From Campylobacterales bacterium (GTDB lineage: Bacteria > Campylobacterota > Campylobacteria > Campylobacterales > QNZT01), in contig JAMONX010000046.1 in assembly GCA_027066435.1 (NCBI GenBank), forward strand, positions 32,895 to 96,894: DNA of 64,000 bases. Direction: 5' to 3'. Shown in pieces: positions 5,772-23,892 of the stretch. Position numbers and translations under genes: made by a program. Below the pieces are notes generated by a model that had not been told where the DNA came from, searched no databases, and was given only the letters and a program-made list of their open reading frames with translations. Positions within the stretch are counted from its first letter, which is position 1; each line of letters begins with the position of its first letter.

Positions 5772-6434
5772 ATGTATAATAATCTAAAAGATAAAACAAT
5801 TCTCTATATAGAAGATGATGAAGTTGTTTTAAAAAACATATCAAAACTTCTTGGGAACTATTTTGCAGGTATTCATACAGCTTGTGATGGAGAACAAGGG
5901 TACAAGCAGTTTGTTAACAAAGATGTTGATTTGCTCATTGTTGATATAGAGCTACCTAAAATAAATGGTATCGAATTAATTAAAAAAATCCGTAAACTTG
6001 ATGACAATATACCTATAGTCGTTATTTCAGCATATACAAAAACTGATTATTTACTAGAGTCAGTTGAATTAAAACTTGATAAATATATCGTCAAGCCATT
6101 TACCTCAAAAAAATTACATAAATTATTACAAAAATTAGATGAGAGTTTCTTGGGTGGTAACTCATTTAAATTGATAGAAGATATACAAATAGATAAAGAA
6201 TTTAGCACTATGAAAGTAGGTGGAGAGACTTTTACATTGACAAACAAAGAGCTTGAATTTTTAGAAACTTTATCTTTAAAGGGAAATGTAACTTATGATG
6301 ATATAGATATATTATGGGTAGATCATCCACCTTCTCCAGATGCTATAAGATCATTTATAAAATCACTTAGAAAAAAATTGCCTAAAGATCTACTTAAAAA
6401 TAGACAAAGCTTGGGCTATTTTATAGAAAAATAG
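5772..6434 (+). CDS. OmpR/PhoB-family response regulator (REC plus winged helix)
   Basis: Receiver motifs ILYIEDDEVV and DLLIVDIELPKINGIEL, with K in VKPF. C-terminal trans_reg_C-like LTNKELEFLETL...SLGYFIEK. TATAAT at 5733-5738, 33 nt upstream. Confidence 0.85.
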   Translation: MYNNLKDKTILYIEDDEVVLKNISKLLGNYFAGIHTACDGEQGYKQFVNKDVDLLIVDIELPKINGIELIKKIRKLDDNIPIVVISAYTKTDYLLESVELKLDKYIVKPFTSKKLHKLLQKLDESFLGGNSFKLIEDIQIDKEFSTMKVGGETFTLTNKELEFLETLSLKGNVTYDDIDILWVDHPPSPDAIRSFIKSLRKKLPKDLLKNRQSLGYFIEK

Positions 6435-6443
6435 TTTCTCATT

Positions 6444-8201
6444 ATGAAATACCAACTATCAAAAAGACGATTGATAATACTTATTGTATTATTTCCGCTC
6501 ACAGTTTTGTTGGTTTATGGTTTTATGACTTACCTTTTTTTATCATATATACAACAAGATGATATGGATAAAGAGGTCTTAAATTTTGAAAAAAGTTTTG
6601 TTGACATTGAAAAAGAGAGACTCAAAGAAAAAGTAAATTCCCTCACCCAATATATAAGCTATTATGATGAAAAAAGTAGCGATAAAATCAAAAAAGATAT
6701 AAGAAGTATTGTTAATGTAAGTGCCGATATTGTAAATAATATTTATAGAAAGTATAGAGGCAAACTAGAGTGGAAAGATATCCAAAAGATTATTTTAGCT
6801 GCTTTAAAAGATATAAAATATGCAGATAATTATGGTCACCTTTTTATCATAAATAAAAAAGGATATGCTTACCAACATTTTGATAAAAATCTTGAAAGAA
6901 AAGTAATTTTAGATATTGAAGATGATTATGGGAAAAAATTTGTAAGAGAATTTAATGAAGTTATAGCACAAGATGGATATGGTTTTGTAGGCTATAACTG
7001 GTATAAACCAAATAACTATACTAATAGTATGTATTATAAAATCTCATACATTAAAAAACTCAACTGTTACAATTGGTACATAGGAGCTGGTGCATATATA
7101 GATGAAATCCAAGAGTTTGCAAAACAAGATATTTTAAAGTACCTTAAATCAAATGCACTATTTACAGATGGTTACTTTTTTATCATTGATGGCAACGCAA
7201 ATCCCATCTTTTACCCCAAAAACAAAGAAAAACTTCCACTAAAGCAGTTTACAAAAATAGGTTCTCATGTAGATGGGGAAAATATGTATCATATTAACTA
7301 TATCAGCAACTATAATTGGTATCTTGTAGCGGCTAGAAGCCTAGAGCATATCGGTCAAGATATAGATAAAAAGAGAGAAAAAGATATAGGTAAAAGAGAG
7401 ATGAATATGCAAACAAATCTCCTGCTTTTAGGATTGGCTTGGTTGATATCAATGCTCTTATCACTATATCTCTCAACAATTATCTATAGACAAATAAGAG
7501 GTTATGAAAAACAGATAAACCAAAGCAATGATAAGATGATGTTTCAATCGAAACAAGCACTAATAGGTGAACTCTTTAGTATGATTGCACACCAATGGAG
7601 ACAACCTATAAATAAAATTGCATCTATCATTGCTCTTGTTAGATTTGAGTTAGAAAATGACAAAATTTCAAAAGAGGATTTAGATAAGAATTTTGAAGAA
7701 ATTGAAGATAGTATAGAGTTTATGAGTGAAACGATAGATGACTTTAGGACATTTTACAAACCCACAACTAGTACAAAACTTGTAAATTTGAAGACTCTAA
7801 TAACTAGATCTATCTTCTTTTTGAAAAACTCAATCCAAAAACATGATATAAAAGTTGTTACAGAGCTTGAAGATATAGAGATGGAATTATATCGCAATGA
7901 GTTTTTACAAGTTATGCTAAATCTTATTAAAAATGGAATAGATGCAATAGGCGATCAAGGTGTTCTTATCATAAAACTATATAAACACCAAGGAGACAAA
8001 GTCATCATCTCTGTTGAAAATAGTGGAAAGAGTATCGATAAAGATGTAATGAAAAAGATATTTGAACCATACTTCACCACAAAAGACGACTCTATGGGGC
8101 TAGGACTCTATATGACAAAGATAATTGTAGAAAAACATATGAAAGGGGAGATAGTAGTAGAACCTCTTAAAGATGGTACTATCTTCACAATAATATTATA
8201 A
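6444..8201 (+). CDS. Sensor histidine kinase with periplasmic Cache-type domain(s)
   Basis: N-terminal TM helix. Cache_2-like GHLFIINKKGYAYQH...GFVGYNWYKP...WYIGAGAYIDEI. A second TM helix. H-box IAHQWRQPIN. ATPase boxes NLIKNGIDA and DSMGLGLYMTK. Confidence 0.85.
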   Translation: MKYQLSKRRLIILIVLFPLTVLLVYGFMTYLFLSYIQQDDMDKEVLNFEKSFVDIEKERLKEKVNSLTQYISYYDEKSSDKIKKDIRSIVNVSADIVNNIYRKYRGKLEWKDIQKIILAALKDIKYADNYGHLFIINKKGYAYQHFDKNLERKVILDIEDDYGKKFVREFNEVIAQDGYGFVGYNWYKPNNYTNSMYYKISYIKKLNCYNWYIGAGAYIDEIQEFAKQDILKYLKSNALFTDGYFFIIDGNANPIFYPKNKEKLPLKQFTKIGSHVDGENMYHINYISNYNWYLVAARSLEHIGQDIDKKREKDIGKREMNMQTNLLLLGLAWLISMLLSLYLSTIIYRQIRGYEKQINQSNDKMMFQSKQALIGELFSMIAHQWRQPINKIASIIALVRFELENDKISKEDLDKNFEEIEDSIEFMSETIDDFRTFYKPTTSTKLVNLKTLITRSIFFLKNSIQKHDIKVVTELEDIEMELYRNEFLQVMLNLIKNGIDAIGDQGVLIIKLYKHQGDKVIISVENSGKSIDKDVMKKIFEPYFTTKDDSMGLGLYMTKIIVEKHMKGEIVVEPLKDGTIFTIIL

Positions 8202-8250
8202 CCTGGAATATTTTGAACTTTTTACTAAAAAAGTAAAAATACTTAACTAA

Positions 8251-8285
8251 TGACACAACTTTGACACAACCTATTGTTATACTTC
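8251..8285 (+). promoter_or_regulatory. Promoter module copy 2: tandem 11-bp TGACACAAC repeats plus an extended -10
   Basis: TGACACAACTT (8251-8261), TGACACAACCT (8262-8272), then TGTTATACT (TG at 8275-76, -10 TATACT at 8278-8283). Same register as copy 1. Confidence 0.55.
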
Positions 8286-8321
8286 TTACAGAATTAGAAA
8301 TATAACATAAAAGGAAGAGAT

Positions 8322-8441
8322 ATGAAGTTTATAAGCAAGAGGTTACAAAACATTGACGCACTTTTAGAGCAGCTAATAAATCTACTCATAACAAACAAGC
8401 AACCGCAAGCCGAGTTTGCAGTCGCTAGATGCAAGGTGTAG
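8322..8441 (+). CDS. Possible 39-aa small protein (MKFISKRLQNIDALLEQLINLLITNKQPQAEFAVARCKV)
   Basis: Not in the ORF track because it is too short. AAGGAAG lies 6 nt upstream. It sits behind promoter module copy 2, and its stop is 2 nt before the next ATG. Confidence 0.25.
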   Translation: MKFISKRLQNIDALLEQLINLLITNKQPQAEFAVARCKV

Positions 8442-8443
8442 AG

Positions 8444-8656
8444 ATGCAAGACCTTAAAAAAATATCAAGCAAAGATATAGCAGAGGCTGTAGGGAAAACG
8501 GCTCCAGCAATAAGCTACCTAAAAAAAAGAAATGCTAATGAGTTTTCACTACTAAAACTCGGTGTATTATGTACAAAGCTAAACTTAGACGATGAAGATC
8601 TTATGGCGATGCATACACTAAAACAAATCGGACTTAAAAATAGAATAGCTTGTTAA
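8444..8656 (+). CDS. Small helix-turn-helix protein (71 aa; the ORF track starts it at 8429)
   Basis: HTH-like SSKDIAEAVGKTAPAISYLKKRN. AGGTG lies 5 nt upstream of the ATG at 8444. Confidence 0.4.
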   Translation: MQDLKKISSKDIAEAVGKTAPAISYLKKRNANEFSLLKLGVLCTKLNLDDEDLMAMHTLKQIGLKNRIAC

Positions 8657-8670
8657 AAGCTTTCTATTTT
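8637..8670. terminator. AT-rich bidirectional stem-loop between convergent genes
   Basis: AAAATAGAATAGCTT / GTTAA / AAGCTTTCTATTTT gives 14 bp with one bulge. It is flanked by an A-run on the left and a T-run on the right. Confidence 0.45.
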
Positions 8671-8749
8671 AAGTCAAATATTAGTAGCTTATATTGTAAG
8701 GTGACTTCAACAAACTCCCTATAGTTTAGGAACAAAGTAGTATTTTTAT

Positions 8750-11053
8750 CTATTTCTCTAAAAGCACATCCTGTTTTTCATATACCAATCCTTCTTTTTT
8801 CCCCACATACTCCAACTCACCAACTATCTCATTTTTCTTCATCTCAATACCAGTTGGAACTCTCACACTATGAATCTGCACCGCCGTTTGTTTAAAGTTT
8901 GGTTCAAAAGATTTTGGGTCAAAAAGTGATTGAGTTAATCTGTTGATCAACTCGGTGTTAAAATGAAACGGTACAAAAACATCTCCTTCCCTAACTACTT
9001 GTGTCACTTTTACAGTTATATCTTCTACCTTGCCACGAGGAGAACTTATAGCAATCTTTTCGCCACTTTTTACTTTTAGTTTATCTGCATCCTTTGGATT
9101 TAACTCTATCCAAGCTTCAGGAGCTAAATTATCAAGAATAGCAATAGTTCCTGTCTTTGTTCTTGTGTGAAACTGTTCAACGGTTCTTCCTGTATTTAGA
9201 GTTAATGGAAACTTCTCACACAGAGACTCCTCCATCGGCTCCCAATCAGCACAGACAAATTTAGGCTTACCATCATCAGTAGAACAAGGCATATCTTTGC
9301 CGTAGAGTCTTTTTGTTCCATTTGGATTTTTTTCATTGCACGGCCATTGAATTCCGCCAAGTTTTTCTATTTTTTGATAACTCATAGAGCTATAATCACA
9401 CAATCTTCCATAACTCACTTTTTGCCACTCTTTAAATGCATCTAGTGGCTCTTCCCAATCTTTGAAAAGTAGTTCATTTACCCCTTCAAAATATTTTGAG
9501 AACTCCAAAACGATATGAAAATCACTCATACTTTTTCCTAGTGGTTCTACCGCTTTTTTAGCTCTATTGCATCTTCTCTCGCTATTTGTATAGACTCCCT
9601 CTTTTTCACTCCAAGTAGAAGCTGAAAAAACTATATCTGCAATCTTTGCAGTATCACTCATAAATGAATCTTGCACTACTAAAAGCTCCAACTTTTCAAA
9701 AGCAGCTCTTAGACGAGATTGGTCAGGATAACTTATTAGTGGATTTGTAGCTATAATCCAAAGTGCTTTTATCTCACCTTTTTCTATAGCTTCTATGATT
9801 TGCGGATATGAGTAACCTCTCTTTTTAGGGACTATCTCTACAGGCACATTTACAATACTTGCATACTCTTCTCTATCATAAGAGCTTGCAAAATTTCTAT
9901 ATCCTGGAATTGAGCTTGTAAATCCACTCTCTCTGCTTCCCATAGCATTGCACTGCCCTGTTAAGCTCATAGGAGAACTACCCTCTTTTCCAAGATTACC
10001 CGTCATCAATGCTAAATTACATATCGCTGATACAGTATCAGTTCCCAAAGCTGATTGATTAACACCCATAGTCCATGCACTCATAGCTTTTTCTGCTCCT
10101 GCATAGACTCTTGCTAATTCATAAAGCTCTTTAACTCCGATACCTGTGATATTTGATACCTCTGATGGAGGGTATTTTTGGATATGTTTTACAAACTCTC
10201 TATATCCAGATGCACTATCTCTCATAAACTCTTCATCAGCCCAGCCCTGCTCCCAGATAATATGGCACAATCCATTGATAAGTGCTAAATCACTTCTAGG
10301 CTTTAAAGGTACAAAGATATCAGCCATATTTGCTGTTTTTGAGTGCCTTGGATCTATAACGATTATAGTTGGTTTTTTACCTGTTATTTTTTTATTTTTT
10401 GCGATATGAAGTTTAAGAATTGGATGATTATCTGCTATATTTGCACCTATTAACATAATGACATCAGCATGTGAAAAGTCTTCATAACAACCAGGAGGTC
10501 CATCACTTCCAAAACTCTGCTTATACCCCATCACTGCACTTGCCATACAAAGTGTGGTATTTCCATCAAAATTATTTGTTTTTAAACCAAGTTGGACAAA
10601 TTTTCCAAGTACATAAAACTCCTCTGTTAAAAGTTGTCCAGTTGAGATGCAAGCAACAGAACCCGAGCCATAGACTTTTGCAACTTCTTTAAACTTATCA
10701 CTCACTTTTAAAAATGCTTCATCCCACTCAACCTCAACCAATTTACCATTTTTTCTAATTTGTGGTGACAAGGCTCTATTATCAGCTCTTACCATCTCAT
10801 ATTGACTTAAACCTTTTGGACAAAGTGTTCCTTTGCTTACTGGATGTGCAGGATCTCCTTTTGTATAAACAGGTTTACCATCTTTTACCCCGATATATAA
10901 ACCGCACCCTACCCCACAATAACCACAAGTTGAACGAACCCAACTATCTGGTTTTTTTGCTTTGGCAACTTTACCAAATATCTCATCATCAACTAACTCA
11001 TATTTTTCATTTTTGATGTCAAATCCCAAAAAATCTTTTATTTTTTTTATCAT
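8750..11053 (-). CDS. Molybdopterin oxidoreductase, cytoplasmic Nas/Nap-type nitrate reductase catalytic subunit (putative)
   Basis: N-terminal FeS motif CGYCGVGCG...x26...CPKG. Mo-ligand region GNTTLCMASAVMGYKQSFG (Cys, not Sec). No twin-arginine signal. ATGA overlap with the upstream FeS/anchor gene. Confidence 0.75.
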   Translation of the reverse strand: MIKKIKDFLGFDIKNEKYELVDDEIFGKVAKAKKPDSWVRSTCGYCGVGCGLYIGVKDGKPVYTKGDPAHPVSKGTLCPKGLSQYEMVRADNRALSPQIRKNGKLVEVEWDEAFLKVSDKFKEVAKVYGSGSVACISTGQLLTEEFYVLGKFVQLGLKTNNFDGNTTLCMASAVMGYKQSFGSDGPPGCYEDFSHADVIMLIGANIADNHPILKLHIAKNKKITGKKPTIIVIDPRHSKTANMADIFVPLKPRSDLALINGLCHIIWEQGWADEEFMRDSASGYREFVKHIQKYPPSEVSNITGIGVKELYELARVYAGAEKAMSAWTMGVNQSALGTDTVSAICNLALMTGNLGKEGSSPMSLTGQCNAMGSRESGFTSSIPGYRNFASSYDREEYASIVNVPVEIVPKKRGYSYPQIIEAIEKGEIKALWIIATNPLISYPDQSRLRAAFEKLELLVVQDSFMSDTAKIADIVFSASTWSEKEGVYTNSERRCNRAKKAVEPLGKSMSDFHIVLEFSKYFEGVNELLFKDWEEPLDAFKEWQKVSYGRLCDYSSMSYQKIEKLGGIQWPCNEKNPNGTKRLYGKDMPCSTDDGKPKFVCADWEPMEESLCEKFPLTLNTGRTVEQFHTRTKTGTIAILDNLAPEAWIELNPKDADKLKVKSGEKIAISSPRGKVEDITVKVTQVVREGDVFVPFHFNTELINRLTQSLFDPKSFEPNFKQTAVQIHSVRVPTGIEMKKNEIVGELEYVGKKEGLVYEKQDVLLEK

Positions 11054-12633
11054 CTTTGATTCCCCGCAAAAAAATTCCCAGCAAGTCCAAGTGGAACAAC
11101 TGTAACAAAAAATAGATATCGCCCTAAAAGTTCACTAACTAATGCTCCAAGAACACTAACTCCCAATAAAAATGAAGCTACTCCAAAAGAATCACTTGCT
11201 ATAAAAAGTATTGCAAATAGTGGTAACACCAACGCAAAAATTCCAAGTGAAAAGAGCCTAATATTTTTAAACTTTCCAAAATTCTCTTCTAAAAGTGTTT
11301 TAGTTCGGTTTAGTTGATAGTAGTTTTTATGTTCACTATCTAAATATTTATAAAAAATCATCTCATCATAGATCAAAAAGAGTTGATACATACCTAACAT
11401 CAGCGTTACTGACAAAATCACCATCACACTTTTATCACTATCACTTCCAAGCAAAATAAAGGCAAGGAGTAAAAAACCAACATAAAAAACACCAAAAAAT
11501 CTGTATGTGGTTGATTTTTTATCCCATGAAGGTCTTGCTTTTACTCTATAAATCATAGATTGGGCATATATACCATAAATCCCAGTAACAAGAACAGCTG
11601 CTTGAAGAAGTGTCATCAAAAAGTCACCTAATCCAAAGAGATAACCTAAAATAACAAAATTTAAACCAAGAGCATAAACTCCCAAAGCTAAAGCCTCACG
11701 AGAGAGCCAAGAGGTTTTTATATTTTTCATAGCTGTTATTGCTAAAAAAGGGCGTCCTAGATGCAAAGCTGAGAGTGGCAAACCAATAGCTGCGGGTAAA
11801 AAGACAAAAATTGCTAACCATATATTTGCAGATGCAAGATTGCCCCCAAAAAGAGTTAAAATCTGCCCTAAAAAGAGGGCTAAAAATCCCCCAACGGAAA
11901 CTTGAGTAAGAACTGTCATAAATACCAATGGCAACTCTTTATGAGCGGGTTTTAAGATATGTTCATCTGCTGGTTTCACATCTCCTTGAAATTTAGGAAG
12001 TGTATATCTAGTTGTTGGTTTTGTGATAGAGATATCTGGTAAATGTGGAGCAACACCTTGTGAAGCCATACCATTTTTAATCCACTCTTCTTTATTTACA
12101 ACCTCTATCTCAATAGCTCCTGCTGGACAAGCTTGTACACATGCTGGAGTTTGTCCATTCTCTAACTTTTCGTGACACATATGACACTTTGTTACAATGC
12201 CTCGATCTTGATTAAAAACAGGCACTTCATACGGACAATTCCAAGTGCAATATTGGCATCCGATACAAACATCATCATCATGATATACGATACCATTTTC
12301 AAATTTAATATAAGAGTTTGTCGGACACCCTTTTAGACACTCTGGATCAATGCAGTGGTTGCAACTCATAGAGTTAAATAGTTGTGAAACTTGTGGAAAC
12401 TCTCCCGCTTCCATCTCTCCTACTCTTCTCCATTTGATATCTGCTGGGTTATTGTTTTGCTCATTGCAAGCCACTTCACAGCAGTGACATCCCACACAAA
12501 CACTCATATCAAAATGAAACCGATACTGTTCACCCTCTTTTAACTCAGGTATATCTATCTGATAATTACCGCATTGCATCCCTGTATCTGCTTTGTAATT
12601 TATAAAACTTTCAAGTGGTGTGTTTTGGTTCAT
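11050..12633 (-). CDS. Fused 4x[4Fe-4S] ferredoxin (DmsB-like) and DmsC-like 8-TM membrane anchor
   Basis: Cys clusters CVGCHCCEVAC, CNHCIDPECLKGCP, CIGCQYCTWNCP and CHMC...CVQACPAGAI, followed by ~8 hydrophobic helices. The likely start is MNQNTPLES at 12633; the ORF track extends it to 12687. Confidence 0.75.
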   Translation of the reverse strand: MNQNTPLESFINYKADTGMQCGNYQIDIPELKEGEQYRFHFDMSVCVGCHCCEVACNEQNNNPADIKWRRVGEMEAGEFPQVSQLFNSMSCNHCIDPECLKGCPTNSYIKFENGIVYHDDDVCIGCQYCTWNCPYEVPVFNQDRGIVTKCHMCHEKLENGQTPACVQACPAGAIEIEVVNKEEWIKNGMASQGVAPHLPDISITKPTTRYTLPKFQGDVKPADEHILKPAHKELPLVFMTVLTQVSVGGFLALFLGQILTLFGGNLASANIWLAIFVFLPAAIGLPLSALHLGRPFLAITAMKNIKTSWLSREALALGVYALGLNFVILGYLFGLGDFLMTLLQAAVLVTGIYGIYAQSMIYRVKARPSWDKKSTTYRFFGVFYVGFLLLAFILLGSDSDKSVMVILSVTLMLGMYQLFLIYDEMIFYKYLDSEHKNYYQLNRTKTLLEENFGKFKNIRLFSLGIFALVLPLFAILFIASDSFGVASFLLGVSVLGALVSELLGRYLFFVTVVPLGLAGNFFAGNQR

Positions 12634-12730
12634 AGTCTCTTTTCTTTTTATATTAATTATATTACACATTATGGTACAATCATACATAATTGTTGGTCAA
12701 AAAGTAATCAAATGCTAAAGGTAAAGATTA

Positions 12731-14299
12731 ATGAAATATATAATAACTCTCTTTTTAATTTTAATAATTATTCTAACGGGCGGATATTACCTACTCTTTA
12801 CAGCTAGTGGAAATGATAAGATTACCCCCTATATCAATAACTATATCTCAAAAAAAATTCCAAAATATACAAAAGTAAGACTTAACAACTTTAGACTAAC
12901 ACCAACAAGAATTAATGCAAATATTACAATAAATGATAGCCTTAATGCAAAAATAATCGGCGATTTTGCACTAACAGGAAAAAAATTTGATTTAGATTAT
13001 CGCCTCTTTTCTAAGCGTTTTAAAGTAAAAAACTTTGTAATGCAAGATAAGCTTGACTTAATAGGAAAAATAAAAGGAGACATTGAACATATTTTTATAG
13101 AGGGATCGGGAAAAGCTATCAATTCAGATGTAAGTTATACCCTAGAAATTGACAAAAAGATTATAAAAGATATTCAAATTGATATAGAAAAAGGAAATTT
13201 AAAAAGTCTGTTGTTGCTTACTGGACAAAAACCTTTTGCATCTGGAGAGCTTGACCTTTATATAAATATGCCAAAACTTGACTCTAAAAATCCAATAGGC
13301 GATGCAAAATTGGTTTTACATCAAGGAACTATTAATAGCGATTTAATTTATAAAGAGTTTAATATTACTCTTCCTGATAACTTCACTTACCAAGCTAACT
13401 TAAAATCCAAACTAAAAAATAATTATGCAACACTTGATGGCGATATCAAAACAACCTTAGCGAATCTCTTTTTAAAGAATTCAAAAGTTTATTACAAAGA
13501 TAAAAAGCTTTTAACGGATTATCAACTTGTAGTTAAGGAGTTATCAAAACTAGAATCGTTAATTGGGAAGAAACTAAAAGGAGAACTGAATATTATCGGT
13601 AAGGCTATGTTTGATAAAACATTAATGCTAGCAGGTTATACAAAAAGTTTTGGTGGAAAGATAGATTTTACTTTAAAAGATTCAAAAGTAGATGCAACCC
13701 TCAAAGGTGTGCCTTTGACAAAAATCATGCATACACTTATCTATCCAGAAGTTTTTGAGAGTGCAGTTTTTGGAGATATAGAGTACAATTTTATCAGTAA
13801 AAGAGGTGAAATTAATGCAGAACTTGTAAATGCTAGATTTTTACCAAATAAAATAACAACCTCTTTAAAAGAGTATGCAAAAGTAGATTTAATAAAAGAG
13901 AAATACAACCAAACAACATTTACTGCAGATTTAGATGCTAATGAAGTTTTGTTTGACTTTAAAGCAAAAAGCGACAAGAGTTATATATCCATCTTGGATG
14001 CAAAATTTTTAAAATCTCAAAACAAAATTGACGCAAAATTTGATATCAACATTGATGAAAAAGATTTTTCAGGAACTATCAAAGGTGATATCTTAAAACC
14101 AAGAGTAAAACTAGATACTTCACAATACTTAAAAACAAAAATTATCAAAGAAGTAGATAAGTTTATCGATGAAAAGATAAGTGATAAAACAAAACAAAAA
14201 CTCCAAAAAGAGTTAGAAAAGATAGGTACGAGAGATTTAAATGTTTCAAAAAAGGCTGAAGAAGAGTTAAGAGGCTTGTTCAGAAATCTTTTCAATTAG
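12731..14299 (+). CDS. Hypothetical membrane-anchored, beta-rich 522-aa protein (possibly AsmA/TamB-like)
   Basis: One N-terminal TM helix (IITLFLILIIILTGGYYLLF), a long Lys/Asp-rich beta-type region, and a charged C-terminal helix. The family assignment is a guess. Confidence 0.35.
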   Translation: MKYIITLFLILIIILTGGYYLLFTASGNDKITPYINNYISKKIPKYTKVRLNNFRLTPTRINANITINDSLNAKIIGDFALTGKKFDLDYRLFSKRFKVKNFVMQDKLDLIGKIKGDIEHIFIEGSGKAINSDVSYTLEIDKKIIKDIQIDIEKGNLKSLLLLTGQKPFASGELDLYINMPKLDSKNPIGDAKLVLHQGTINSDLIYKEFNITLPDNFTYQANLKSKLKNNYATLDGDIKTTLANLFLKNSKVYYKDKKLLTDYQLVVKELSKLESLIGKKLKGELNIIGKAMFDKTLMLAGYTKSFGGKIDFTLKDSKVDATLKGVPLTKIMHTLIYPEVFESAVFGDIEYNFISKRGEINAELVNARFLPNKITTSLKEYAKVDLIKEKYNQTTFTADLDANEVLFDFKAKSDKSYISILDAKFLKSQNKIDAKFDINIDEKDFSGTIKGDILKPRVKLDTSQYLKTKIIKEVDKFIDEKISDKTKQKLQKELEKIGTRDLNVSKKAEEELRGLFRNLFN

Positions 14300-14402: not shown

Positions 14403-15686
14403 ATGGCAGGCATTAAAGATTTAAAAGGACAGGGGCATTGGCCCACCCTTTTAGCAGCGTTTTTATATTTTGATTTTAGTTTTATGGTTTGGGTAATTTT
14501 GGGACCTTTATCTACAGAGATTTCTGAGTCATTGAAACTAGCTCACAATTTTATTATGACACCAGATCAAAAAGCAACACTTCTTGCTATTCCAATTTTA
14601 GCTGGTGCAATTTTAAGAATTTTATTAGGATTTTTAGTTGATAAAATAGGGCCAAAGAAAACAGCACTTATGGCACAATCTATAGTAATAGCTGGTCTAT
14701 TTTATGCTTATTTTAAAGGTTCTTCTATTACTTATGATGAGCTATTAGTAGTTGCATTTTTATTAGGTTTTGCAGGGGCTTCATTTGCTGTGGCACTCCC
14801 ACAAACTGGGCAATGGTATCCACCAAAACTTCAAGGGATTGTTTTAGGAATTGCAGGGGCCGGAAATATCGGTGTTGTTATAGATTTTATATTTGCACCA
14901 AAAATTGCGGAGCTTTGGGGTTGGGAAAGTGTATTTTTGATAGGTGGTGTGCTATCTACTATTATTTTCATAGCCTACTGTTTTATGGCAAAAGATGCAC
15001 CACCAGAGGTTTATACACCAAGACCTAAAAAACTTAAAGATTACGGAAAACTTTTAAAAGACAAAGATACCTGGTGGTTTAGTCTTTTTTATGCTGTTAG
15101 TTTTGGTGGGTTTGTAGGATTTGCTGCATATATGAAAGTCTATTTGATGAATACTTATCAAGTAGATATGAGTGAGTTTGGAGAAAATGTAATAAACGAG
15201 CAAAATGTTAAAGTAGTTGCTGGTTATTTTGGAGCATTTTGTATCTTTGCAGGAGCAATTCTAAGACCATTTGGCGGAGCAATTGCTGATAAGATTGGTG
15301 GCATAAAATCACTCTATTTCTTCTATGGTATAGTTGCAATTCTAGCGGTAGTAACAGCTACAATCGAAATACCATTTTATTTAGCAATTTTTGTACTATT
15401 TTTAATAATGGCTAGTCTTGGTATGGCAAATGGTGCAGTTTTCCAACTAGTGCCACAAAGATTTGGTAAAGATATAGGTATCATGACAGGATTAATCGGA
15501 TGTGCTGGAGGACTTGGTGGATTTGCACTTATCAAAACTCTTGGTTGGAGTAAAGGTGCATTTGATGGATATACAGCAGGATTTTTAATATTTGCTTGCC
15601 TTGTATTGTTAGCAATTACAGGAATTTCTTTGGTAAAAACAAGATGGAGAACAACATGGGGTGCAAAAGCAGGTGGAATAATATAA
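14403..15686 (+). CDS. narK: MFS nitrate/nitrite porter (NNP family)
   Basis: 427 aa with ~12 TM helices. Two NNP nitrate-signature-like motifs, GIAGAGNIGVV and SLGMANGAVFQLVPQRF. AGGAG RBS. Confidence 0.85.
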   Translation: MAGIKDLKGQGHWPTLLAAFLYFDFSFMVWVILGPLSTEISESLKLAHNFIMTPDQKATLLAIPILAGAILRILLGFLVDKIGPKKTALMAQSIVIAGLFYAYFKGSSITYDELLVVAFLLGFAGASFAVALPQTGQWYPPKLQGIVLGIAGAGNIGVVIDFIFAPKIAELWGWESVFLIGGVLSTIIFIAYCFMAKDAPPEVYTPRPKKLKDYGKLLKDKDTWWFSLFYAVSFGGFVGFAAYMKVYLMNTYQVDMSEFGENVINEQNVKVVAGYFGAFCIFAGAILRPFGGAIADKIGGIKSLYFFYGIVAILAVVTATIEIPFYLAIFVLFLIMASLGMANGAVFQLVPQRFGKDIGIMTGLIGCAGGLGGFALIKTLGWSKGAFDGYTAGFLIFACLVLLAITGISLVKTRWRTTWGAKAGGII

Positions 15687-17315
15687 ATGGCAAATATTAA
15701 CCTATCTGGTTTTTCATTAGCAAAAGGGAAAGAACTTAAAGGCGATGATGCCTTTTTGTTCAAACAGATAGACAATCTTACAATCTCTGTTGTTTGTGAT
15801 GGAGTTGGAAGTGCAGAGCATGGAGCTGAAGCTGCTCAAAGAGTTTGTAATTTTTTGATAAACTCTCTTAAAAATCGCCCACTTTCGTGGAGCATCCAAA
15901 AATCTATTACCCACTTTATAAAAAACATCAATAAAATCCTCTATACCGAATCAATAGACTCTTATGAGAGAGAAGAGCTTATAACTACACTTACATTGGT
16001 GGTCATTGAAGGAGAACAACTCTATGGAGCGAATGTTGGAGATAGTAGAATATATTTACAAAGAGATGGAAAATTATCCCAACTTTCATCAGATCATAGT
16101 GCTGATGAAGAGGGATTAGATGGGGTCTTAACCCAAGCCATAGGTATAAGTGAAGATGTAGAACCTTATTATTTTGAAAATCTAATAGCACCCCATGATA
16201 AAATTTTAATGTGCAGTGACGGCTTATACACAATCTTAGACGACGATAAATTAAATGATGGAATCTCAGGAGGTGCTCACTATCTTATAAAAAAAGCTAG
16301 TAAATTGATGAATGATAATCTTCCTGATGATACAACGGCAGTTATTATTGATATAAAAGAGACAGATTTGTTCTGTTTGCTAAAACAAGCAAAAGTAGAT
16401 ATTCCTGAAAATCTAAAAGCTGGACAAAATATAGATGGCTATAAACTTATAAAACCTTTAGTACAAAATGAGAGAACTTGGCTTTGTGAAAATAATACGA
16501 TAGAGTATGTAATAAAGTTTGCTCCATATGAAGCACTTGAAGATGAACGCCTACTTGATTTGTTTGTAAAAGAGGCTTGGAATGCTAAAAGATTGAAAGC
16601 TGGATATTTTCCAAAATCTGTAATTCCAAGAAATAGAACTTCAAGATATTATATTATGCAGCTGGTAAAGGGTGATGAAGTAAAAAAATATATCAAAAAG
16701 AGATTATTATCAATTGATGAGGGTGTCTCTTTGGCAAAATTTTTATTGGAGATGAATCAATTTTTATTGAAGTATGATTTAGTTCACGGAGATATAAAAC
16801 CAGAAAATATCATTAGAGCTCAAAGGAAAGGTAAAACTTATTATAAAATGGTTGATTTTGGAAGTATTATCGAGATATTTTCGATAAATTCCAGAGCTGG
16901 CACTCCATCATATCTTGCTCCTGAGAGATTTAAGGGAGAAAATATAAATGAACAAAGTGAAATATTTTCTTTAGGTGTAACACTCTATGAAACACTTACT
17001 GGAAAACTTCCATATGGTGAGATAGAACCATTTCAAAATCCAACATTTAAGAAACCAAAAAATCCAACACTACACAATCCAAAAATCCCTAAATGGTTTG
17101 AGAGTGTAATTTTAAGAGCGATATCAGCTGATTCTTCATTTAGATATCAAAACTACTCTGAGATGCTATTTGAATTAGAAAATCCTAAAAAAGTAAAACC
17201 ATTTTTTGACAAGGATGCATCCCTGATTGAAAAAGAACCAGTCAAAGTATATAGAGCAGGTTTTATTATCATGCTGGTTATAAATATCTTTTTGTCATAT
17301 AAGTTATTTTTATAA
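15687..17315 (+). CDS. Bifunctional PP2C-type phosphatase / Ser-Thr protein kinase with a C-terminal TM anchor
   Basis: PP2C motifs VVCDGVGS, GANVGDSRIY, LMCSDGLY and DDTTAVIID. Kinase motifs VIKF (Lys), HGDIKPENI, VDFGS and GTPSYLAPE. Tail AGFIIMLVINIFLSYKLFL. Its ATG directly follows the narK TAA. Confidence 0.85.
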   Translation: MANINLSGFSLAKGKELKGDDAFLFKQIDNLTISVVCDGVGSAEHGAEAAQRVCNFLINSLKNRPLSWSIQKSITHFIKNINKILYTESIDSYEREELITTLTLVVIEGEQLYGANVGDSRIYLQRDGKLSQLSSDHSADEEGLDGVLTQAIGISEDVEPYYFENLIAPHDKILMCSDGLYTILDDDKLNDGISGGAHYLIKKASKLMNDNLPDDTTAVIIDIKETDLFCLLKQAKVDIPENLKAGQNIDGYKLIKPLVQNERTWLCENNTIEYVIKFAPYEALEDERLLDLFVKEAWNAKRLKAGYFPKSVIPRNRTSRYYIMQLVKGDEVKKYIKKRLLSIDEGVSLAKFLLEMNQFLLKYDLVHGDIKPENIIRAQRKGKTYYKMVDFGSIIEIFSINSRAGTPSYLAPERFKGENINEQSEIFSLGVTLYETLTGKLPYGEIEPFQNPTFKKPKNPTLHNPKIPKWFESVILRAISADSSFRYQNYSEMLFELENPKKVKPFFDKDASLIEKEPVKVYRAGFIIMLVINIFLSYKLFL

Positions 17316-17406: not shown

Positions 17407-19167
17407 ATGGATTTTAAAACATTAAATAAATATACTAAAAACTTACGCCTTCTTTATATAGAAGATGATGAAGAGATTTGCAAACAAAGCGTAGAACTAC
17501 TAGAACTATTTTTTGAAGATGTCATCATCTGTTACAACGGAGAAGAAGCTCTTGAAACTTATAAATCTGACTTATATTTAACAAACAGACTATTTGATAT
17601 TATCATAACCGATATTCATATGCCTAAAATGGATGGAATAGAGTTAATTGAAAATGTTTTAAGATTAAATCCTAAACAAGCTATAACTGTTATCTCAGCA
17701 GATGGTGGTAACTCTTTTACACTACTTAAACTTATAAATTTAGGCATTAACAGTTTTTTACTAAAACCATTAAAAGAGAATCAATTAATAGATACTCTAT
17801 ATAAAGCCTCAAAGAATTTATATAATGAAAAAATTGCACTTCAATACAATCAAAAGATAACCACATCAAATCTAAGACTAGAACAAGAGATAAAAAGAAG
17901 AACAAAAAGACTAAAAGAACAACTCTATACAGATAACTTAACAGGATTAAAAAACCGAAGTGCCTTAGGAAGAGATATTGACAATAACTCTTACAATATG
18001 ATAGCTCTTATTGATATTGATCGTTTTCAATTTATAAATGATCTCTACGGTGCAAAAATAGGAAACCAAGTTATCAGAGAGTTTACAAGCTTCTTAAAGA
18101 AAAATGTAGATAAAACTCATTATAAACTTTATCGAACATCAGGGGATGAGTTTGCAATCTGCCATAAAGGAGAAGATGCTCTTCACTTTGAAAATTTTAT
18201 AATTAACCTTAGTAAAAGTGTTACAAATTTGCCTCTTTTTATTCAAAAACTAACTGATACAATATATCTAGATGCAACTATCGGTCTATCTTTTGAGAAA
18301 AAACAACTTTTAACAAATTGTGACATAGCTCTGCGTCATGCAAAGAAAAATAAAAAACCACTTATAATATATAGAGATGAAATAAATACTCTTAAAAATA
18401 TAAAAGATGCACTAGAGTGGAAATATAAAATTCGTCATGCATTAGAAAATGACAATATTATTCCCATTTTTCAACCAATTGTTGACAAAGAGGGAGAAAT
18501 TTTAAAGTATGAAGCCTTAATGAGACTAAAAGAGCATACAGTCGATGGTGAACAACTAGTCTCTCCTAGCTTTTTCTTAGAGACCGCAGTTTTAACAAAA
18601 CAATATCCAAAACTTTCACATACAATAATCAAAAAATCACTCCAACACTTAATAAAAAATGATATAACTTTATCAATAAATCTAACATACAGTGACTTTA
18701 TAGATGAACAAATCATAACACTTATCACTGATATATTAGACAAAGAAGAGATTGGTAATAGACTTATTTTTGAAATTGTTGAGAGTGAAGATATCAAAGA
18801 CTATGCTTTACTACAGAGCTTTATAGAAAAGTTTAGAAAATATGGTGTTAAAATTGCAATTGATGATTTTGGGAGTGGTTTTTCAAACTTTGGGAATATT
18901 ATACAAACTAAACCAGATTATCTAAAAATTGATGGTTCACTTATAAAAAATATTGATACAAGTAGCCATACACAAACTATGGTAAGAGCAATAATGCAAA
19001 TTGCAAATGAGTTAGATATAAAAATAATTGCCGAATTTGTACACTCAAAAGAGGTTTTTGAAGCACTACATAAATTTGATATAGATGAGTTTCAAGGTAA
19101 CTATTTTTATGAGCCTTCAACTGCATTAATAGAAAAAAAAGGTACAATAAAACTAAAAACAATCTAA
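17407..19167 (+). CDS. Response regulator with GGDEF and EAL domains (c-di-GMP turnover)
   Basis: REC (LLYIEDDEE, IIITDIHMPKMDG). GGDEF domain with SGDEF in place of GGDEF. EAL motifs YEALMRL, EIVESE, DDFGSGFSNF, KIDGS and QGNYF. Confidence 0.85.
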   Translation: MDFKTLNKYTKNLRLLYIEDDEEICKQSVELLELFFEDVIICYNGEEALETYKSDLYLTNRLFDIIITDIHMPKMDGIELIENVLRLNPKQAITVISADGGNSFTLLKLINLGINSFLLKPLKENQLIDTLYKASKNLYNEKIALQYNQKITTSNLRLEQEIKRRTKRLKEQLYTDNLTGLKNRSALGRDIDNNSYNMIALIDIDRFQFINDLYGAKIGNQVIREFTSFLKKNVDKTHYKLYRTSGDEFAICHKGEDALHFENFIINLSKSVTNLPLFIQKLTDTIYLDATIGLSFEKKQLLTNCDIALRHAKKNKKPLIIYRDEINTLKNIKDALEWKYKIRHALENDNIIPIFQPIVDKEGEILKYEALMRLKEHTVDGEQLVSPSFFLETAVLTKQYPKLSHTIIKKSLQHLIKNDITLSINLTYSDFIDEQIITLITDILDKEEIGNRLIFEIVESEDIKDYALLQSFIEKFRKYGVKIAIDDFGSGFSNFGNIIQTKPDYLKIDGSLIKNIDTSSHTQTMVRAIMQIANELDIKIIAEFVHSKEVFEALHKFDIDEFQGNYFYEPSTALIEKKGTIKLKTI

Positions 19168-23504: not shown

Positions 23505-23892
23505 TATATTAATTGTAGATGATATGCCTAAAAATATCCAAATGGCAATGAATATGCTAAAGGGAGAGGGGCATCATATGTTTTATGCCAAAAATGCTAA
23601 AATGGGTTTAAATATAGTAAAAGAGCAAAAAATCGATATAATTCTTTTAGATATTATGATGCCACAGATGGATGGTTATCAAATGTGTAAAATTTTGAAA
23701 AGTGATAAAAATACAAAAGATATACCTGTAATATTTTTATCAGGAAAAGATTCAAGTGAAGATATACAAAAAGCATATGAAGCTGGTGGAGTAGATTATA
23801 TCACTAAGCCTTTTATCGATATTGAACTCAAAACAAAAGTTTCAATTCAAACAGAATTAGTTAGACTAAGAAAGGAATTTATGTGCGCCTAA
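23497..23892 (+). CDS. Single-domain CheY-like response regulator
   Basis: ILIVDDMPKN, IILLDIMMPQMDG and DYITKPF. It overlaps the hybrid kinase gene by 8 nt. Confidence 0.85.
   Translation: MSNILIVDDMPKNIQMAMNMLKGEGHHMFYAKNAKMGLNIVKEQKIDIILLDIMMPQMDGYQMCKILKSDKNTKDIPVIFLSGKDSSEDIQKAYEAGGVDYITKPFIDIELKTKVSIQTELVRLRKEFMCA

What the first reader, a model, noticed from the sequence alone, without database searches (positions are those of the whole stretch)
8750..12687. Tat-less Nas/Nap-type molybdoenzyme coupled to a fused DmsB-DmsC protein
The 767-aa catalytic subunit has the N-terminal C-x2-C-x3-C-x26-C cluster. It also has the Mo-ligand region TTLCMASAVMGYKQSFG, which matches the CMASA-type cysteine ligand of Nap/Nas nitrate reductases rather than the Sec/Cys-His of formate dehydrogenases. 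It has no twin-arginine signal. Its gene overlaps (ATGA) an upstream gene that encodes a four-cluster ferredoxin fused to an ~8-TM DmsC-like quinol anchor, which also lacks a Tat signal. Known assimilatory nitrate reductases take electrons from ferredoxin, flavodoxin or NAD(P)H. Known DmsBC-type modules serve periplasm-facing enzymes. A cytoplasm-facing, quinol-linked Nas-type enzyme near narK would be an unusual electron-entry route for nitrate reduction. No nitrite reductase is present in the window.
Basis: partly seen in the sequence, partly recalled or inferred. Interest (0 to 1): 0.6.

Follow-up and report, generated by a model that had tools for sequence, protein, structure and literature searches.

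The report
Membrane-anchored, quinol-fed assimilatory nitrate reductase
Two overlapping genes encode a nitrate reductase of the assimilatory type that, instead of using a soluble electron donor, appears to be bolted to the inner face of the membrane through a fused iron-sulfur/quinol-binding protein; this wiring turns out to be widespread in several bacterial phyla, and I found no description of it in the literature I could search.

Summary
Window 8750-11053(-) encodes a Tat-less Mo-bisPGD enzyme with the Nap/Nas signatures (Cys-Met ligand, L-T-G-Q) and not the formate dehydrogenase ones. Its start overlaps (ATGA) the stop of a 527-aa protein, which is a 16-Cys four-cluster ferredoxin fused to an 8-TM DmsC/PsrC-like anchor. 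The positive-inside bias (17 vs 1 K+R) puts the FeS domain and the conserved quinol-site His/Glu on the cytoplasmic side, inverted relative to E. coli DmsC.

The pair is not a local oddity. At least 436 species genomes carry the fusion, and the best 80 are all Campylobacterota. A 40-51% identical version occurs in Acidobacteriota and Dormibacteraeota. In all three phyla it sits in operons with an assimilatory nitrite reductase (NirA or NirBD), NarK and often sirohaem genes. An NJ tree places the catalytic subunit inside the Cys-Met nitrate-reductase clade (bootstrap 99), sister to stand-alone Nas-like enzymes.

Best reading: a cytoplasm-facing menaquinol:nitrate oxidoreductase for nitrate assimilation. 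The quinol link is inferred, not shown.

- SoeABC is a known cytoplasm-facing precedent for this kind of anchor.
- The Cys spacing is x27, not x26.
- The fusion probably starts at 12633, not 12687.

Verdict: a new variant of known kinds, of fairly high interest.

The parts
8750..11053 (-). Catalytic subunit: 767-aa Tat-less Mo-bisPGD enzyme of the Nap/Nas (Cys-Met) type
   Evidence: Pfam domains. NJ tree places it in the Cys-Met clade, bootstrap 99. More than 120 homologues at 70-84% identity in Campylobacterota.
10937..11053 (-). N-terminal 39-residue extension (MIKKIKDFLGFDIKNEKYELVDD...). It has no twin-arginine and no hydrophobic core. It is shared with the Acidobacteria-type relative P0241 and is absent from stand-alone sister enzymes. 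It is a candidate contact with the FeS domain (inference).
10820..10927 (-). FS0 [4Fe-4S] motif C43-x2-C46-x3-C50-x27-C78
10508..10558 (-). Mo-ligand segment TTLCMASAVMGYKQSFG (Cys169-Met170)
   Evidence: Aligns with LCMASAV of D. desulfuricans NapA. FDH structures have (Sec/Cys)-His at this position.
9950..9964 (-). L-T-G-Q-C motif. It carries Thr where formate dehydrogenases have the catalytic Arg (RGQ).
11050..11053 (-). ATGA stop/start overlap that couples the two genes translationally
11050..12633 (-). Fused electron-transfer/anchor protein, 527 aa from the likely start at 12633 (the ORF extends to 12687)
   Evidence: AF2 model pLDDT 86.6; its two halves match PsrB (TMt 0.75) and PsrC/ActC.
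12127..12498 (-). Four-cluster ferredoxin domain with 16 invariant Cys (four [4Fe-4S] clusters)
11089..11928 (-). Eight-TM DmsC/PsrC-like domain. K+R counts are 17 on loops 2-3, 4-5 and 6-7, against 1 on the other loops, which indicates an N-in topology.
11692..11769 (-). Putative quinol site: LHLGRP His291 and WLSRE Glu313. They align with His65 and Glu87 of E. coli DmsC and are invariant in 92/92 family members.
   Evidence: Role of the DmsC residues as described in PMC8076601.
14403..15686 (+). NarK-family nitrate/nitrite MFS transporter
   Evidence: Its homologue was found in 48 of the 82 related loci.
15687..17315 (+). PP2C phosphatase / Ser-Thr kinase fusion that travels with narK. Probable regulator of uptake (inference).

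Best explanation
The two genes encode a membrane-bound, cytoplasm-facing nitrate reductase that works in nitrate assimilation and takes its electrons from the (mena)quinol pool.

Proposed path:
1. NarK brings nitrate in.
2. Menaquinol is oxidised at a site formed by the first four helices of the DmsC/PsrC-like domain (His291, Glu313), on the cytoplasmic face.
3. Two electrons pass along the four [4Fe-4S] clusters of the fused N-terminal domain to FS0 and then to the Mo-bisPGD centre (Cys169 ligand) of the 767-aa subunit.
4. That subunit reduces nitrate to nitrite in the cytoplasm.
5. Nitrite then goes to a sirohaem nitrite reductase. In relatives this is NirA or NirBD in the same operon. In this genome it must be encoded outside the window.

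Quinol oxidation and nitrate reduction are on the same (N) side, so the reaction should be electroneutral. It would spend quinol rather than NAD(P)H or low-potential ferredoxin. That is economical for sulfur- and hydrogen-oxidising autotrophs, which must make those carriers by reverse electron flow.

Shown: gene structure, cofactor motifs, lack of an export signal, topology bias, phylogenetic placement, operon partners.
Inferred: the substrate, the quinol donor, complex formation, the energetics.
For: - Nap/Nas signatures and not FDH ones.
- NJ placement inside the Cys-Met clade, bootstrap 99. The anchored family plus P0241 has bootstrap 100. It is sister (99) to stand-alone Nas-like enzymes that sit beside MFS transporter and Mo-cofactor genes.
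- No Tat motif in 240 homologues.
- 16 invariant Cys.
- PF04976 DmsC match, and PsrB/PsrC fold matches for the two halves.
- His65/Glu87 equivalents invariant in 92/92. Mutation of His65 in DmsC blocks quinol oxidation according to PMC8076601.
- K+R bias of 17 vs 1 in the window protein, conserved in both phylum-level branches. It is opposite to E. coli DmsC, for which I counted about 4 vs 8 by eye on the sequence printed.
- The catalytic gene follows the fusion gene on the same strand in 45/59 loci. Of 45 loci with at least 2.5 kb on both sides, 29 also hold nirA.
- The gene order is fus-cat-nirB-nirD-MFS in Dormibacteraeota, flanked by sirohaem genes, and nirB-nirD-fus-cat-MFS in Acidobacteria.
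- No NasB-like diaphorase or flavodoxin/ferredoxin gene was listed in the three operons whose genes came with Pfam tables.
Against: - No biochemical or genetic data exist for any member that I could find.
- The window itself has no nitrite reductase, so an assimilatory role here rests on relatives.
- 14 of 59 loci have the fusion gene without the catalytic gene downstream, so the pairing is not obligatory at the gene-order level.
- The catalytic subunit passes no curated NCBIfam cutoff (NasC 498 < 1100).
- I could not read model coordinates, so the position of the FeS domain relative to the His/Glu loop was not checked in 3D.
- Arcobacteraceae carry a second, stand-alone NarB-like enzyme in the same cluster, so the division of labour there is unclear.
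Confidence: 0.6

Rival explanations
1. The enzyme is a nitrate reductase, but it serves dissimilation or redox balancing (a cytoplasmic electron sink, a functional analogue of NarGHI) rather than assimilation. NarK would act as a nitrate/nitrite antiporter.
For: The window has narK but no nitrite reductase. The architecture (catalytic subunit + four-cluster protein + quinol anchor) is that of respiratory enzymes.
Against: - Quinol oxidation on the N side gives no redox loop, so little energy would be conserved (inference from the topology).
- In three phyla the genes are in operons with assimilatory NirA/NirBD and sirohaem genes.
- From my own knowledge, not tested here: Campylobacterota generally respire nitrate with periplasmic Nap.
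Confidence: 0.12
2. The membrane domain is only a tether. Electrons reach the four-cluster domain from a soluble cytoplasmic donor (ferredoxin or flavodoxin), as in NarB, and not from quinol.
For: Known Nas enzymes use ferredoxin, flavodoxin or NAD(P)H (general knowledge; PMC7331816). Polyferredoxin-like domains can accept electrons from soluble partners.
Against: - The His and Glu that align with the DmsC quinol-site residues are invariant in 92/92 sequences across phyla at about 40% overall identity. So are the LHLGRP and SWLSRE motifs around them.
- An eight-helix NrfD-fold domain is an expensive tether.
- Stand-alone sister enzymes do without both the FeS domain and the anchor.
Confidence: 0.13
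3. The fused FeS/anchor protein is a shared quinol dehydrogenase that also (or mainly) feeds the sirohaem nitrite reductase NirA in Campylobacterota. The whole nitrate-to-ammonium route would then be quinol-driven. This reading is not exclusive of the best explanation.
For: - nirA lies directly upstream on the same strand in 36 of 64 loci. In one locus (L084) it ends 2 nt before the fusion gene starts.
- Five of the 14 loci without a downstream catalytic gene keep nirA directly upstream of the fusion gene; four of them are among the 45 loci with 2.5 kb on both sides.
- Sulfurovum-type NirA carries a roughly 110-aa extra C-terminal segment that could be a docking element.
Against: - In Acidobacteria and Dormibacteraeota the partner is NirBD, which has its own NAD(P)H/FAD input.
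- The window has the pair without any NirA.
- Sirohaem NirA normally needs a low-potential donor. Menaquinol is a much weaker reductant than ferredoxin, although the nitrite/ammonium couple itself is positive (general knowledge).
Confidence: 0.2
4. It is a formate dehydrogenase, or a formate:quinone oxidoreductase working in the oxidative direction. Some automatic names and the top NCBIfam hit suggest this.
For: TIGR01591 Fdh-alpha is the best NCBIfam hit (574 bits). The three best PDB sequence matches are FDHs. JGI labels some fusion homologues 'formate dehydrogenase iron-sulfur subunit'.
Against: - The score is below the TIGR01591 cutoff (666). The same model also tops the list for each of the ten Cys-Met/T-G-Q representatives scanned, including a proteobacterial-length NasA-like one, so the ranking is uninformative.
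- The FDH-defining (Sec/Cys)-His and the Arg of RGQ are replaced by Cys-Met and Thr in all 120 family members.
- The tree excludes it from the Cys-His clade.
- The operon partners are nitrogen-assimilation genes.
Confidence: 0.03

Closest known systems
Soluble assimilatory nitrate reductases (cyanobacterial NarB, B. subtilis NasC, proteobacterial NasA/NasC)
   Same: - Cytoplasmic, no Tat signal.
- FS0 four-Cys motif, Cys-Met Mo ligand segment, L/I-T-G-Q motif.
- Clusters with them and with NapA in the tree.
- Encoded next to NarK and NirA/NirBD.
   Different: - No NAD(P)H diaphorase, ferredoxin or flavodoxin partner, and no C-terminal 2Fe-2S extension.
- Instead the gene is translationally coupled to a four-cluster protein fused to a quinol anchor.
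- It has N- and C-terminal extensions of about 39 aa each.
- It passes no curated Nas HMM cutoff.
- Wells et al. 2020 state that no member of the FDH/Nas/Aio/Nap clade is associated with the canonical four-cluster or anchor subunits (PMC7331816).
DmsABC / PsrABC-type complex iron-sulfur molybdoenzymes
   Same: - Three-module logic: Mo-bisPGD subunit with FS0, a 16-Cys four-cluster protein, and a haem-free 8-TM NrfD/DmsC-fold quinol anchor.
- The DmsC His65 and Glu87 equivalents are conserved.
- The model halves match PsrB and PsrC.
   Different: - The B and C modules are one polypeptide.
- No Tat signal, and the membrane orientation is inverted.
- The catalytic subunit comes from the Nap/Nas clade, not the DmsA/PsrA clades.
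SoeABC sulfite:quinone oxidoreductase
   Same: It is the one described complex of this type whose peripheral subunits face the cytoplasm, and its anchor SoeC is inferred to be inverted. SoeC also has His65 and Glu87 (PMC8076601).
   Different: - Different catalytic clade and substrate (sulfite oxidation, quinone reduction).
- Separate SoeB and SoeC subunits.
NarGHI respiratory nitrate reductase
   Same: Cytoplasm-facing, membrane-bound, quinol-dependent nitrate reduction, with NarK supplying nitrate.
   Different: - NarG uses an Asp ligand and is only remotely related (narG model 27.7 bits).
- NarI is a dihaem b anchor that oxidises quinol at the P side and so builds proton-motive force (general knowledge). 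Here the predicted quinol site is on the N side.
Bacillus subtilis ForCE, a non-canonical menaquinone-linked cytoplasmic formate dehydrogenase (PMC8808070; only the title and the start of the abstract were seen)
   Same: A cytoplasmic enzyme of the same broad FdhF/Nas clade that is reported to be linked to menaquinone rather than to a soluble carrier.
   Different: It is a formate dehydrogenase. I did not read that paper's body, so I make no further comparison.

Membership tests
Nap/Nas-type nitrate reductase catalytic subunits | N-terminal four-Cys FS0 motif | tested here: met
   C43, C46, C50, C78
Nap/Nas-type nitrate reductase catalytic subunits | Cys Mo ligand followed by Met (LCMASAV), and Thr in the (L/I)TGQ motif | tested here: met
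   Aligned with D. desulfuricans NapA and E. coli NapA. 119 of 120 family members keep C-M.
Nap/Nas-type nitrate reductase catalytic subunits | Phylogenetic placement with nitrate reductases rather than formate dehydrogenases | tested here: met
   NJ tree, 147 taxa, 653 columns, 100 bootstraps. It lies inside a 94-member Cys-Met clade that includes E. coli NapA (bootstrap 99). E. coli FdhF and the Cys-His sequences fall outside it. This is a distance tree only; no ML tree was made.
Nap/Nas-type nitrate reductase catalytic subunits | Score above a curated family cutoff (NasC NF047855, NasA_Halo NF041323, NapA TIGR01706) | tested here: not met
   498 < 1100; 475 < 1000; 409 < 930. The nearest neighbours also pass none, so these models are narrow.
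Nap/Nas-type nitrate reductase catalytic subunits | Nitrate-reducing activity | not testable with these tools
   Needs an enzyme assay.
Assimilatory (Nas) systems | Cytoplasmic location (no Tat signal) | tested here: met
   No RR in the first 60 residues of 120 homologues.
Assimilatory (Nas) systems | Gene cluster with an assimilatory nitrite reductase and a nitrate transporter | tested here: met
   Met in relatives from three phyla. In the window only narK is present; nirA is absent.
Assimilatory (Nas) systems | NAD(P)H-, ferredoxin- or flavodoxin-type electron donor module | tested here: not met
   No such gene is listed in the operons whose genes came with Pfam tables. A four-cluster/DmsC fusion takes that place.
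Complex iron-sulfur molybdoenzymes (DmsABC/PsrABC type) | Four-cluster protein with four Cys groups | tested here: met
   16 invariant Cys. Best PDB matches are PsrB (NrfC) and FdnH.
Complex iron-sulfur molybdoenzymes (DmsABC/PsrABC type) | Haem-free 8-TM NrfD/DmsC-type anchor with quinol-site residues | tested here: met
   PF04976, 81 bits. Profile alignment to E. coli DmsC, 41.6 bits, with His65 and Glu87 matched. PsrC/ActC fold.
Complex iron-sulfur molybdoenzymes (DmsABC/PsrABC type) | Tat-dependent export and periplasmic orientation of the A and B subunits | tested here: not met
   No Tat motif. The K+R bias is inverted.
Complex iron-sulfur molybdoenzymes (DmsABC/PsrABC type) | Separate B and C polypeptides | tested here: not met
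   A single 527-aa protein, and about 510-aa proteins in other phyla.
SoeABC | Cytoplasm-facing peripheral subunits with an inverted anchor | tested here: met
   definition from PMC8076601.
SoeABC | SoeA-type (Psr/Sre-related) catalytic subunit | tested here: not met
   The best curated matches are the FDH/Nas/Nap models; the PhsA model scores only 185 bits. No direct comparison with SoeA was possible.
Formate dehydrogenase alpha (FdhF/TIGR01591) | (Sec/Cys)-His ligand pair, the Arg of RGQ, and a score above the cutoff | tested here: not met
   C-M, LTGQ, and 574 < 666 bits.

The most novel reading that the evidence does not exclude
This is a third class of assimilatory nitrate reductase, dependent on quinol and bound to the membrane. 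It is built from a Nas-type catalytic subunit and a fused, membrane-inverted PsrB/PsrC-like module. It is widespread in Campylobacterota, Acidobacteriota and Dormibacteraeota, yet it is annotated only generically. In vent and sediment Campylobacterota the same module may also feed NirA. Nitrate assimilation would then cost quinol rather than NAD(P)H or ferredoxin. Such a link would change the energy budgets assumed for these autotrophs and the reading of 'nasA' and 'dmsC' hits in metagenomes.
Probability: 0.5. Interest if true: 0.75.

Novelty: new variant of a known kind. Interest (0 to 1): 0.62.

Why it matters
Textbook and review accounts give bacterial assimilatory nitrate reductases only soluble donors (NAD(P)H, ferredoxin, flavodoxin). 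Recent phylogenomic surveys of the DMSO-reductase superfamily state that the FDH/Nas/Nap clade never pairs with the four-cluster and anchor subunits (PMC7331816).

If this complex works as its sequence suggests:
- It adds a quinol-fed entry route for nitrate assimilation.
- It gives a second example, after SoeABC, of an NrfD/DmsC-type anchor working upside-down.
- It explains how sulfur- and hydrogen-oxidising Campylobacterota, abundant soil Acidobacteriota and Dormibacteraeota can reduce nitrate for growth without spending low-potential reductant.

It also matters for annotation. The anchor gene is currently labelled DMSO reductase, polysulfide reductase or formate dehydrogenase subunit. That labelling has possibly already led to a sulfur-cycle reading of a nitrate-reductase operon (PMC9938260).

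The prediction is directly testable in cultured Poseidonibacter and Hydrogenimonas species, which carry the genes.

Tried and rejected
- **NCBIfam ranking.** It put Fdh-alpha first. I rejected it as a classifier because the same model tops the list for each of the ten Cys-Met/T-G-Q representatives scanned, and none of them passes a cutoff.
- **First AlphaFold run.** With 29 close homologues it gave an unusable FeS domain (pLDDT < 50). A 146-sequence alignment spanning two branches fixed this (pLDDT 86.6, pTM 0.87).
- **3D geometry.** Model coordinates are not exposed, so I could not measure on which face the FeS domain docks.
- **Nitrite reductase in the window.** I looked for a nirA remnant downstream of the catalytic gene, where the closest relatives have nirA. 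There is none.
- **Orphan fusion genes.** I asked whether fusion genes without a neighbouring catalytic gene are a separate paralogue. They are not: they are 80-94% identical (12 of the 14 at 87% or more) to fusions from catalytic-gene-linked or short loci.
- **Literature.**
  - 'membrane-bound assimilatory nitrate reductase' gave 0 papers.
  - DmsC + assimilatory nitrate + fusion gave 2 papers; the one I opened was irrelevant.
  - The NrfD-family review lists no Nas-type complex.
  - The S. denitrificans genome paper (the PMC id I recalled for it, PMC2258580) is not held.
- **Not tested.**
  - Soe reference sequences were not obtainable, so the SoeB/SoeC relationship is untested.
  - The genome scan patterns (CE[VA]ACNE[QL], GIVTKC[HD]M) fit the Campylobacterota branch, so the figure of 436 species is a lower bound and probably misses the Acidobacteria-type branch.

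Full report
**What is in the window**

Two ORFs on the minus strand, 8750-11053 (767 aa) and 11050-12687, overlap by the four bases ATGA...CAA AGA TGA / ATG ATA AAA.

The downstream protein has the three Pfam domains of a Mo-bisPGD enzyme.
- Its FS0 cysteines are C43, C46, C50 and C78. The spacing is Cx2Cx3Cx27C, not x26.
- It contains TTLCMASAVMGYKQSFG at residues 166-182.

The upstream protein combines a Fer4_11 four-cluster domain (DmsB-like TIGR02951, 152 bits) with PF04976 DmsC (81 bits).
- Its homologues are 524-531 aa long and align from Met19. A purine-rich stretch lies just upstream of that ATG. The true start is therefore probably 12633, giving 527 aa.
- Sixteen cysteines in four groups are invariant.

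The window is about 32% G+C. The closest relatives of both proteins are from uncultured Campylobacterales (83-84% identity).

**Is the catalytic subunit a nitrate reductase or a formate dehydrogenase?**

Profile scores are ambiguous. The best NCBIfam hit is Fdh-alpha (574 bits, cutoff 666), followed by NasC (498), haloarchaeal NasA (475) and NapA (409). No cutoff is passed. The three best PDB sequence matches are formate dehydrogenases, with D. desulfuricans NapA close behind (436-414 bits).

Residue-level evidence is not ambiguous.
- The three best-matching FDH structures carry (Sec/Cys)-His at the ligand position and L-R-G-Q at the catalytic arginine. E. coli FdhF carries Sec-His and V-R-G-Q.
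- The window protein carries Cys-Met and L-T-G-Q. So do D. desulfuricans NapA (LCMASAV, SLTGQPNA) and E. coli NapA.
- Of 120 family members, 119 have C-M and all have (I/L/F)-T-G-Q-C.

I searched 1.84 billion cluster representatives. The 28 nearest representatives all lack the FDH signature, and most carry Cys-Met with T-G-Q; a few have variants of it. The first Cys-His/Arg sequence appears only at about rank 30.

I built a neighbour-joining tree from 147 sequences and 653 columns, with 100 bootstraps.
- The window protein groups with its Campylobacterota relatives and P0241 (51% identity): bootstrap 100.
- This group is sister to stand-alone enzymes of about 695-930 aa with C-M/T-G-Q: bootstrap 99.
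- All of these lie inside a 94-member clade of Cys-Met (or close variant), T-G-Q-type sequences that contains E. coli NapA: bootstrap 99.
- E. coli FdhF and the Cys-His sequences fall outside.

This is a distance tree without characterised Nas references. I could not obtain any. The same Fdh-alpha model also ranks first for all ten of the non-FDH-signature neighbours I scanned, so that ranking carries no weight.

**Which side of the membrane?**

Neither protein has a twin-arginine motif. I found none in the N-termini of 120 catalytic and 120 fusion homologues. The conserved 39-residue N-terminal extension of the catalytic subunit has no hydrophobic core. Its counterpart in P0241 (MSLRRRLGFDTRQEDYAY...) is clearly homologous and is not a signal peptide.

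The fusion has eight hydrophobic segments.
- The loops after TM2, TM4 and TM6 hold 4, 6 and 7 Lys+Arg.
- The other four loops hold 0, 0, 1 and 0.
- This bias is conserved: 18.4 vs 1.1 in 41 Campylobacterota sequences, and 12.6 vs 0.6 in 51 Acidobacteria-type sequences.

By the positive-inside rule the N-terminus of TM1, and hence the FeS domain, is cytoplasmic.

E. coli DmsC aligns helix for helix with this domain (profile score 41.6 bits). From its sequence I count the opposite bias, roughly 8 K+R on the odd loops and 4 on the even ones. The count is by eye, on the sequence printed. It agrees with the periplasmic N-terminus known for DmsC (general knowledge). The anchor is therefore inverted as a unit, with the FeS domain still on the N-terminal side of TM1.

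A 146-sequence AlphaFold model is confident (pLDDT 86.6, pTM 0.87). Its two halves match PsrB (TMt 0.75, 31% identity) and PsrC/ActC (TMt 0.63 / 0.48) of solved complexes. I could not read coordinates to check the docking face.

**Is there a quinol site?**

In the profile alignment, DmsC His65 (MLHLGSP) and Glu87 (SALSNE) fall on His291 (ALHLGRP) and Glu313 (SWLSRE) of the fusion. Both residues are invariant in 92 of 92 sequences spanning about 40% overall identity. The review of NrfD-like subunits lists His65 and Glu87 among the quinol-site residues of DmsC and SoeC. It reports that replacing His65 blocks quinol oxidation (PMC8076601). This is the basis for the quinol link. It is an inference.

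**How general is it, and what travels with it?**

A pattern scan of one genome per GTDB species found 436 genomes with a relative of the fusion. The best 80 are all Campylobacterota: Sulfurovum, Nitratifractor, Hydrogenimonas, Arcobacteraceae and Sulfurospirillum-labelled MAGs. The figures below come from tblastn of the window proteins and a Poseidonibacter NirA against 82 loci.
- The catalytic gene follows the fusion gene on the same strand in 45 of 59 loci with at least 2.5 kb downstream.
- A NirA-type sirohaem nitrite reductase lies directly upstream on the same strand in 36 of 64 loci, directly after the catalytic gene in 7, and somewhere in the locus in 48 of 82.
- narK was found in 48 loci and a PP2C-kinase fusion in 38.
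- Of 45 loci with 2.5 kb on both sides, 29 have both the catalytic gene and nirA, 8 have the catalytic gene only, 4 have nirA only and 4 have neither.
- The fusions without a neighbouring catalytic gene are 80-94% identical (12 of the 14 at 87% or more) to fusions from catalytic-gene-linked or short loci. They are therefore not a separate paralogue.

The family reaches beyond this phylum.
- P0241 lies on a 5.8-Mb contig in the order GAF-ANTAR regulator, NirB-NirD fusion, Fer4_11+DmsC fusion, catalytic subunit (start overlapping), MFS.
- Its fusion partner has about 510-aa relatives labelled Bryobacterales, Terriglobia, Acidobacteria and Ca. Dormibacteraeota.
- In a Dormibacteraeota genome the order is fusion, catalytic subunit, nirB, nirD, MFS. 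A divergently transcribed sirohaem synthase gene lies upstream, and HEM4 and a second sirohaem synthase gene lie downstream.
- In an Acidobacteria genome the order is HEM4, nirB, nirD, fusion, catalytic subunit, MFS.

Two stand-alone sister enzymes sit beside a MobA-like gene, one of them also beside an MFS transporter and moa genes. Neither has a neighbouring FeS or anchor gene. The anchored form therefore looks derived within Nas-like enzymes. It is marked by the N-terminal extension.

**The window compared with its relatives**

The window has narK (14403-15686) and the PP2C-kinase gene (15687-17315) on the other strand. They are separated from the pair by a 522-aa ORF of unknown function.

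It has no nitrite reductase. No NIR_SIR or NirB domain appears in any of the ORFs I scanned, which cover everything large enough to encode one. There is no tblastn hit at E<=1. In the closest relatives nirA follows the catalytic gene (L003, L004, L010, L017, L018). In the window that position holds only small ORFs. The nitrite reductase of this organism must be elsewhere, or nitrite is exported.

**Mechanism**

I take the complex to be a cytoplasm-facing menaquinol:nitrate oxidoreductase.
1. Quinol is oxidised at the His291/Glu313 site on the N side.
2. Electrons pass through four [4Fe-4S] clusters to FS0 and Mo.
3. Nitrate brought in by NarK is reduced to nitrite.

Both half-reactions are on one side, so no redox loop arises, unlike in NarGHI. 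The benefit would be to spare NAD(P)H or ferredoxin. From general knowledge, the MK/MKH2 couple (about -74 mV) can easily drive nitrate reduction (about +420 mV).

I put 0.6 on this whole statement. I put about 0.8 on 'nitrate reductase used for assimilation' and about 0.65 on 'quinol is the donor'.

Rivals:
- A dissimilatory or redox-balancing role (0.12).
- A mere tether with a soluble donor (0.13).
- A formate dehydrogenase (0.03).
- The non-exclusive idea that the module also feeds NirA in Campylobacterota (0.2). This is suggested by the tight nirA-fusion linkage and by a roughly 110-aa extra C-terminal segment on Sulfurovum-type NirA.

**Comparison with what is known**

The parts are familiar. 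The combination and the orientation are not.
- Reviews and superfamily phylogenies treat Nas enzymes as soluble. They state that the FDH/Nas/Aio/Nap clade is not associated with the four-cluster and anchor subunits (PMC7331816; PMC10100899).
- The catalogue of NrfD-like complexes lists no Nas-type member (PMC8076601).
- That review does describe SoeABC as facing the N side with an inverted SoeC.
- A Thiovulum genome paper mentions a three-gene operon of narB, ttrB and nrfD, and reads the nrfD as polysulfide reductase (PMC9938260). That operon may be an unfused relative that was misread.
- Full-text searches for a membrane-bound or quinol-dependent assimilatory nitrate reductase found nothing relevant. 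The library lacks most subscription journals, so prior mention elsewhere cannot be excluded.

**Verdict**

I class it as a new variant of known kinds: a Nas-type enzyme wired as an inverted, fused CISM. It is conserved across at least three phyla and uncharacterised in the literature I could search. Interest: 0.62.

Noticed in passing
window 15687-17315 (+): A PP2C phosphatase / Ser-Thr protein kinase fusion starts at the base after the narK stop. A homologue accompanies narK in most related loci (found in 38 loci, against 48 with narK). This suggests phospho-regulation of nitrate uptake.
   Followed up: partly
window 19167-25115 (+): A 1445-aa hybrid sensor kinase carries NMT1 and SBP_bac_3 solute-binding-type domains ahead of its kinase core, followed by a response regulator and a REC-HATPase protein. 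An NMT1_2 protein sits beside narK in Arcobacteraceae loci, so this may be a nitrate/nitrite-related sensor.
   Followed up: no
window 12731-14299 (+): A 522-aa ORF with an N-terminal hydrophobic segment lies between the reductase genes and narK. It has no Pfam or NCBIfam hit and no homologue in the 82 related loci.
   Followed up: partly
window 8202-8749: Where the closest relatives have nirA after the catalytic gene, the window has only about 550 bp with small ORFs. No nirA remnant is detectable.
   Followed up: yes
L084:1-2052; L035:7776-9716; L062:7997-9988: Sulfurovum-type NirA proteins carry a roughly 110-residue Cys-free C-terminal extension. In L084 the gene ends 2 nt before the fusion gene starts. 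Poseidonibacter NirA (L002:6800-8395) lacks the extension.
   Followed up: partly
L002:4684-6675 (also L031, L038, L082): Arcobacteraceae clusters hold a second, stand-alone 663-aa NarB-like enzyme (CMSSAV, SLTGQPNAMGGRE) between the kinase gene and nirA, in addition to the anchored pair. That makes two nitrate-reductase-type enzymes in one cluster.
   Followed up: partly
L015, L028, L030, L041, L070 and nine other loci: The fusion gene occurs without a catalytic gene within 2.7-10 kb downstream. Five of these 14 loci keep nirA directly upstream. The proteins are 80-94% identical to those of catalytic-gene-linked or short loci, so the operon has been split rather than the protein re-purposed.
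   Followed up: yes
L087:6802-8004: The fusion gene of the Acidobacteria-type locus is called at 400 aa, whereas its relatives are about 510 aa. The start codon is probably mis-called in the public record.
   Followed up: no
window 17407-19167 (+) and 5772-8201 (+): A REC-GGDEF-EAL protein lies downstream of the kinase gene. An OmpR-type response regulator plus a dCache histidine kinase lie convergent to the catalytic gene. Any link to nitrate control is unknown.
   Followed up: no
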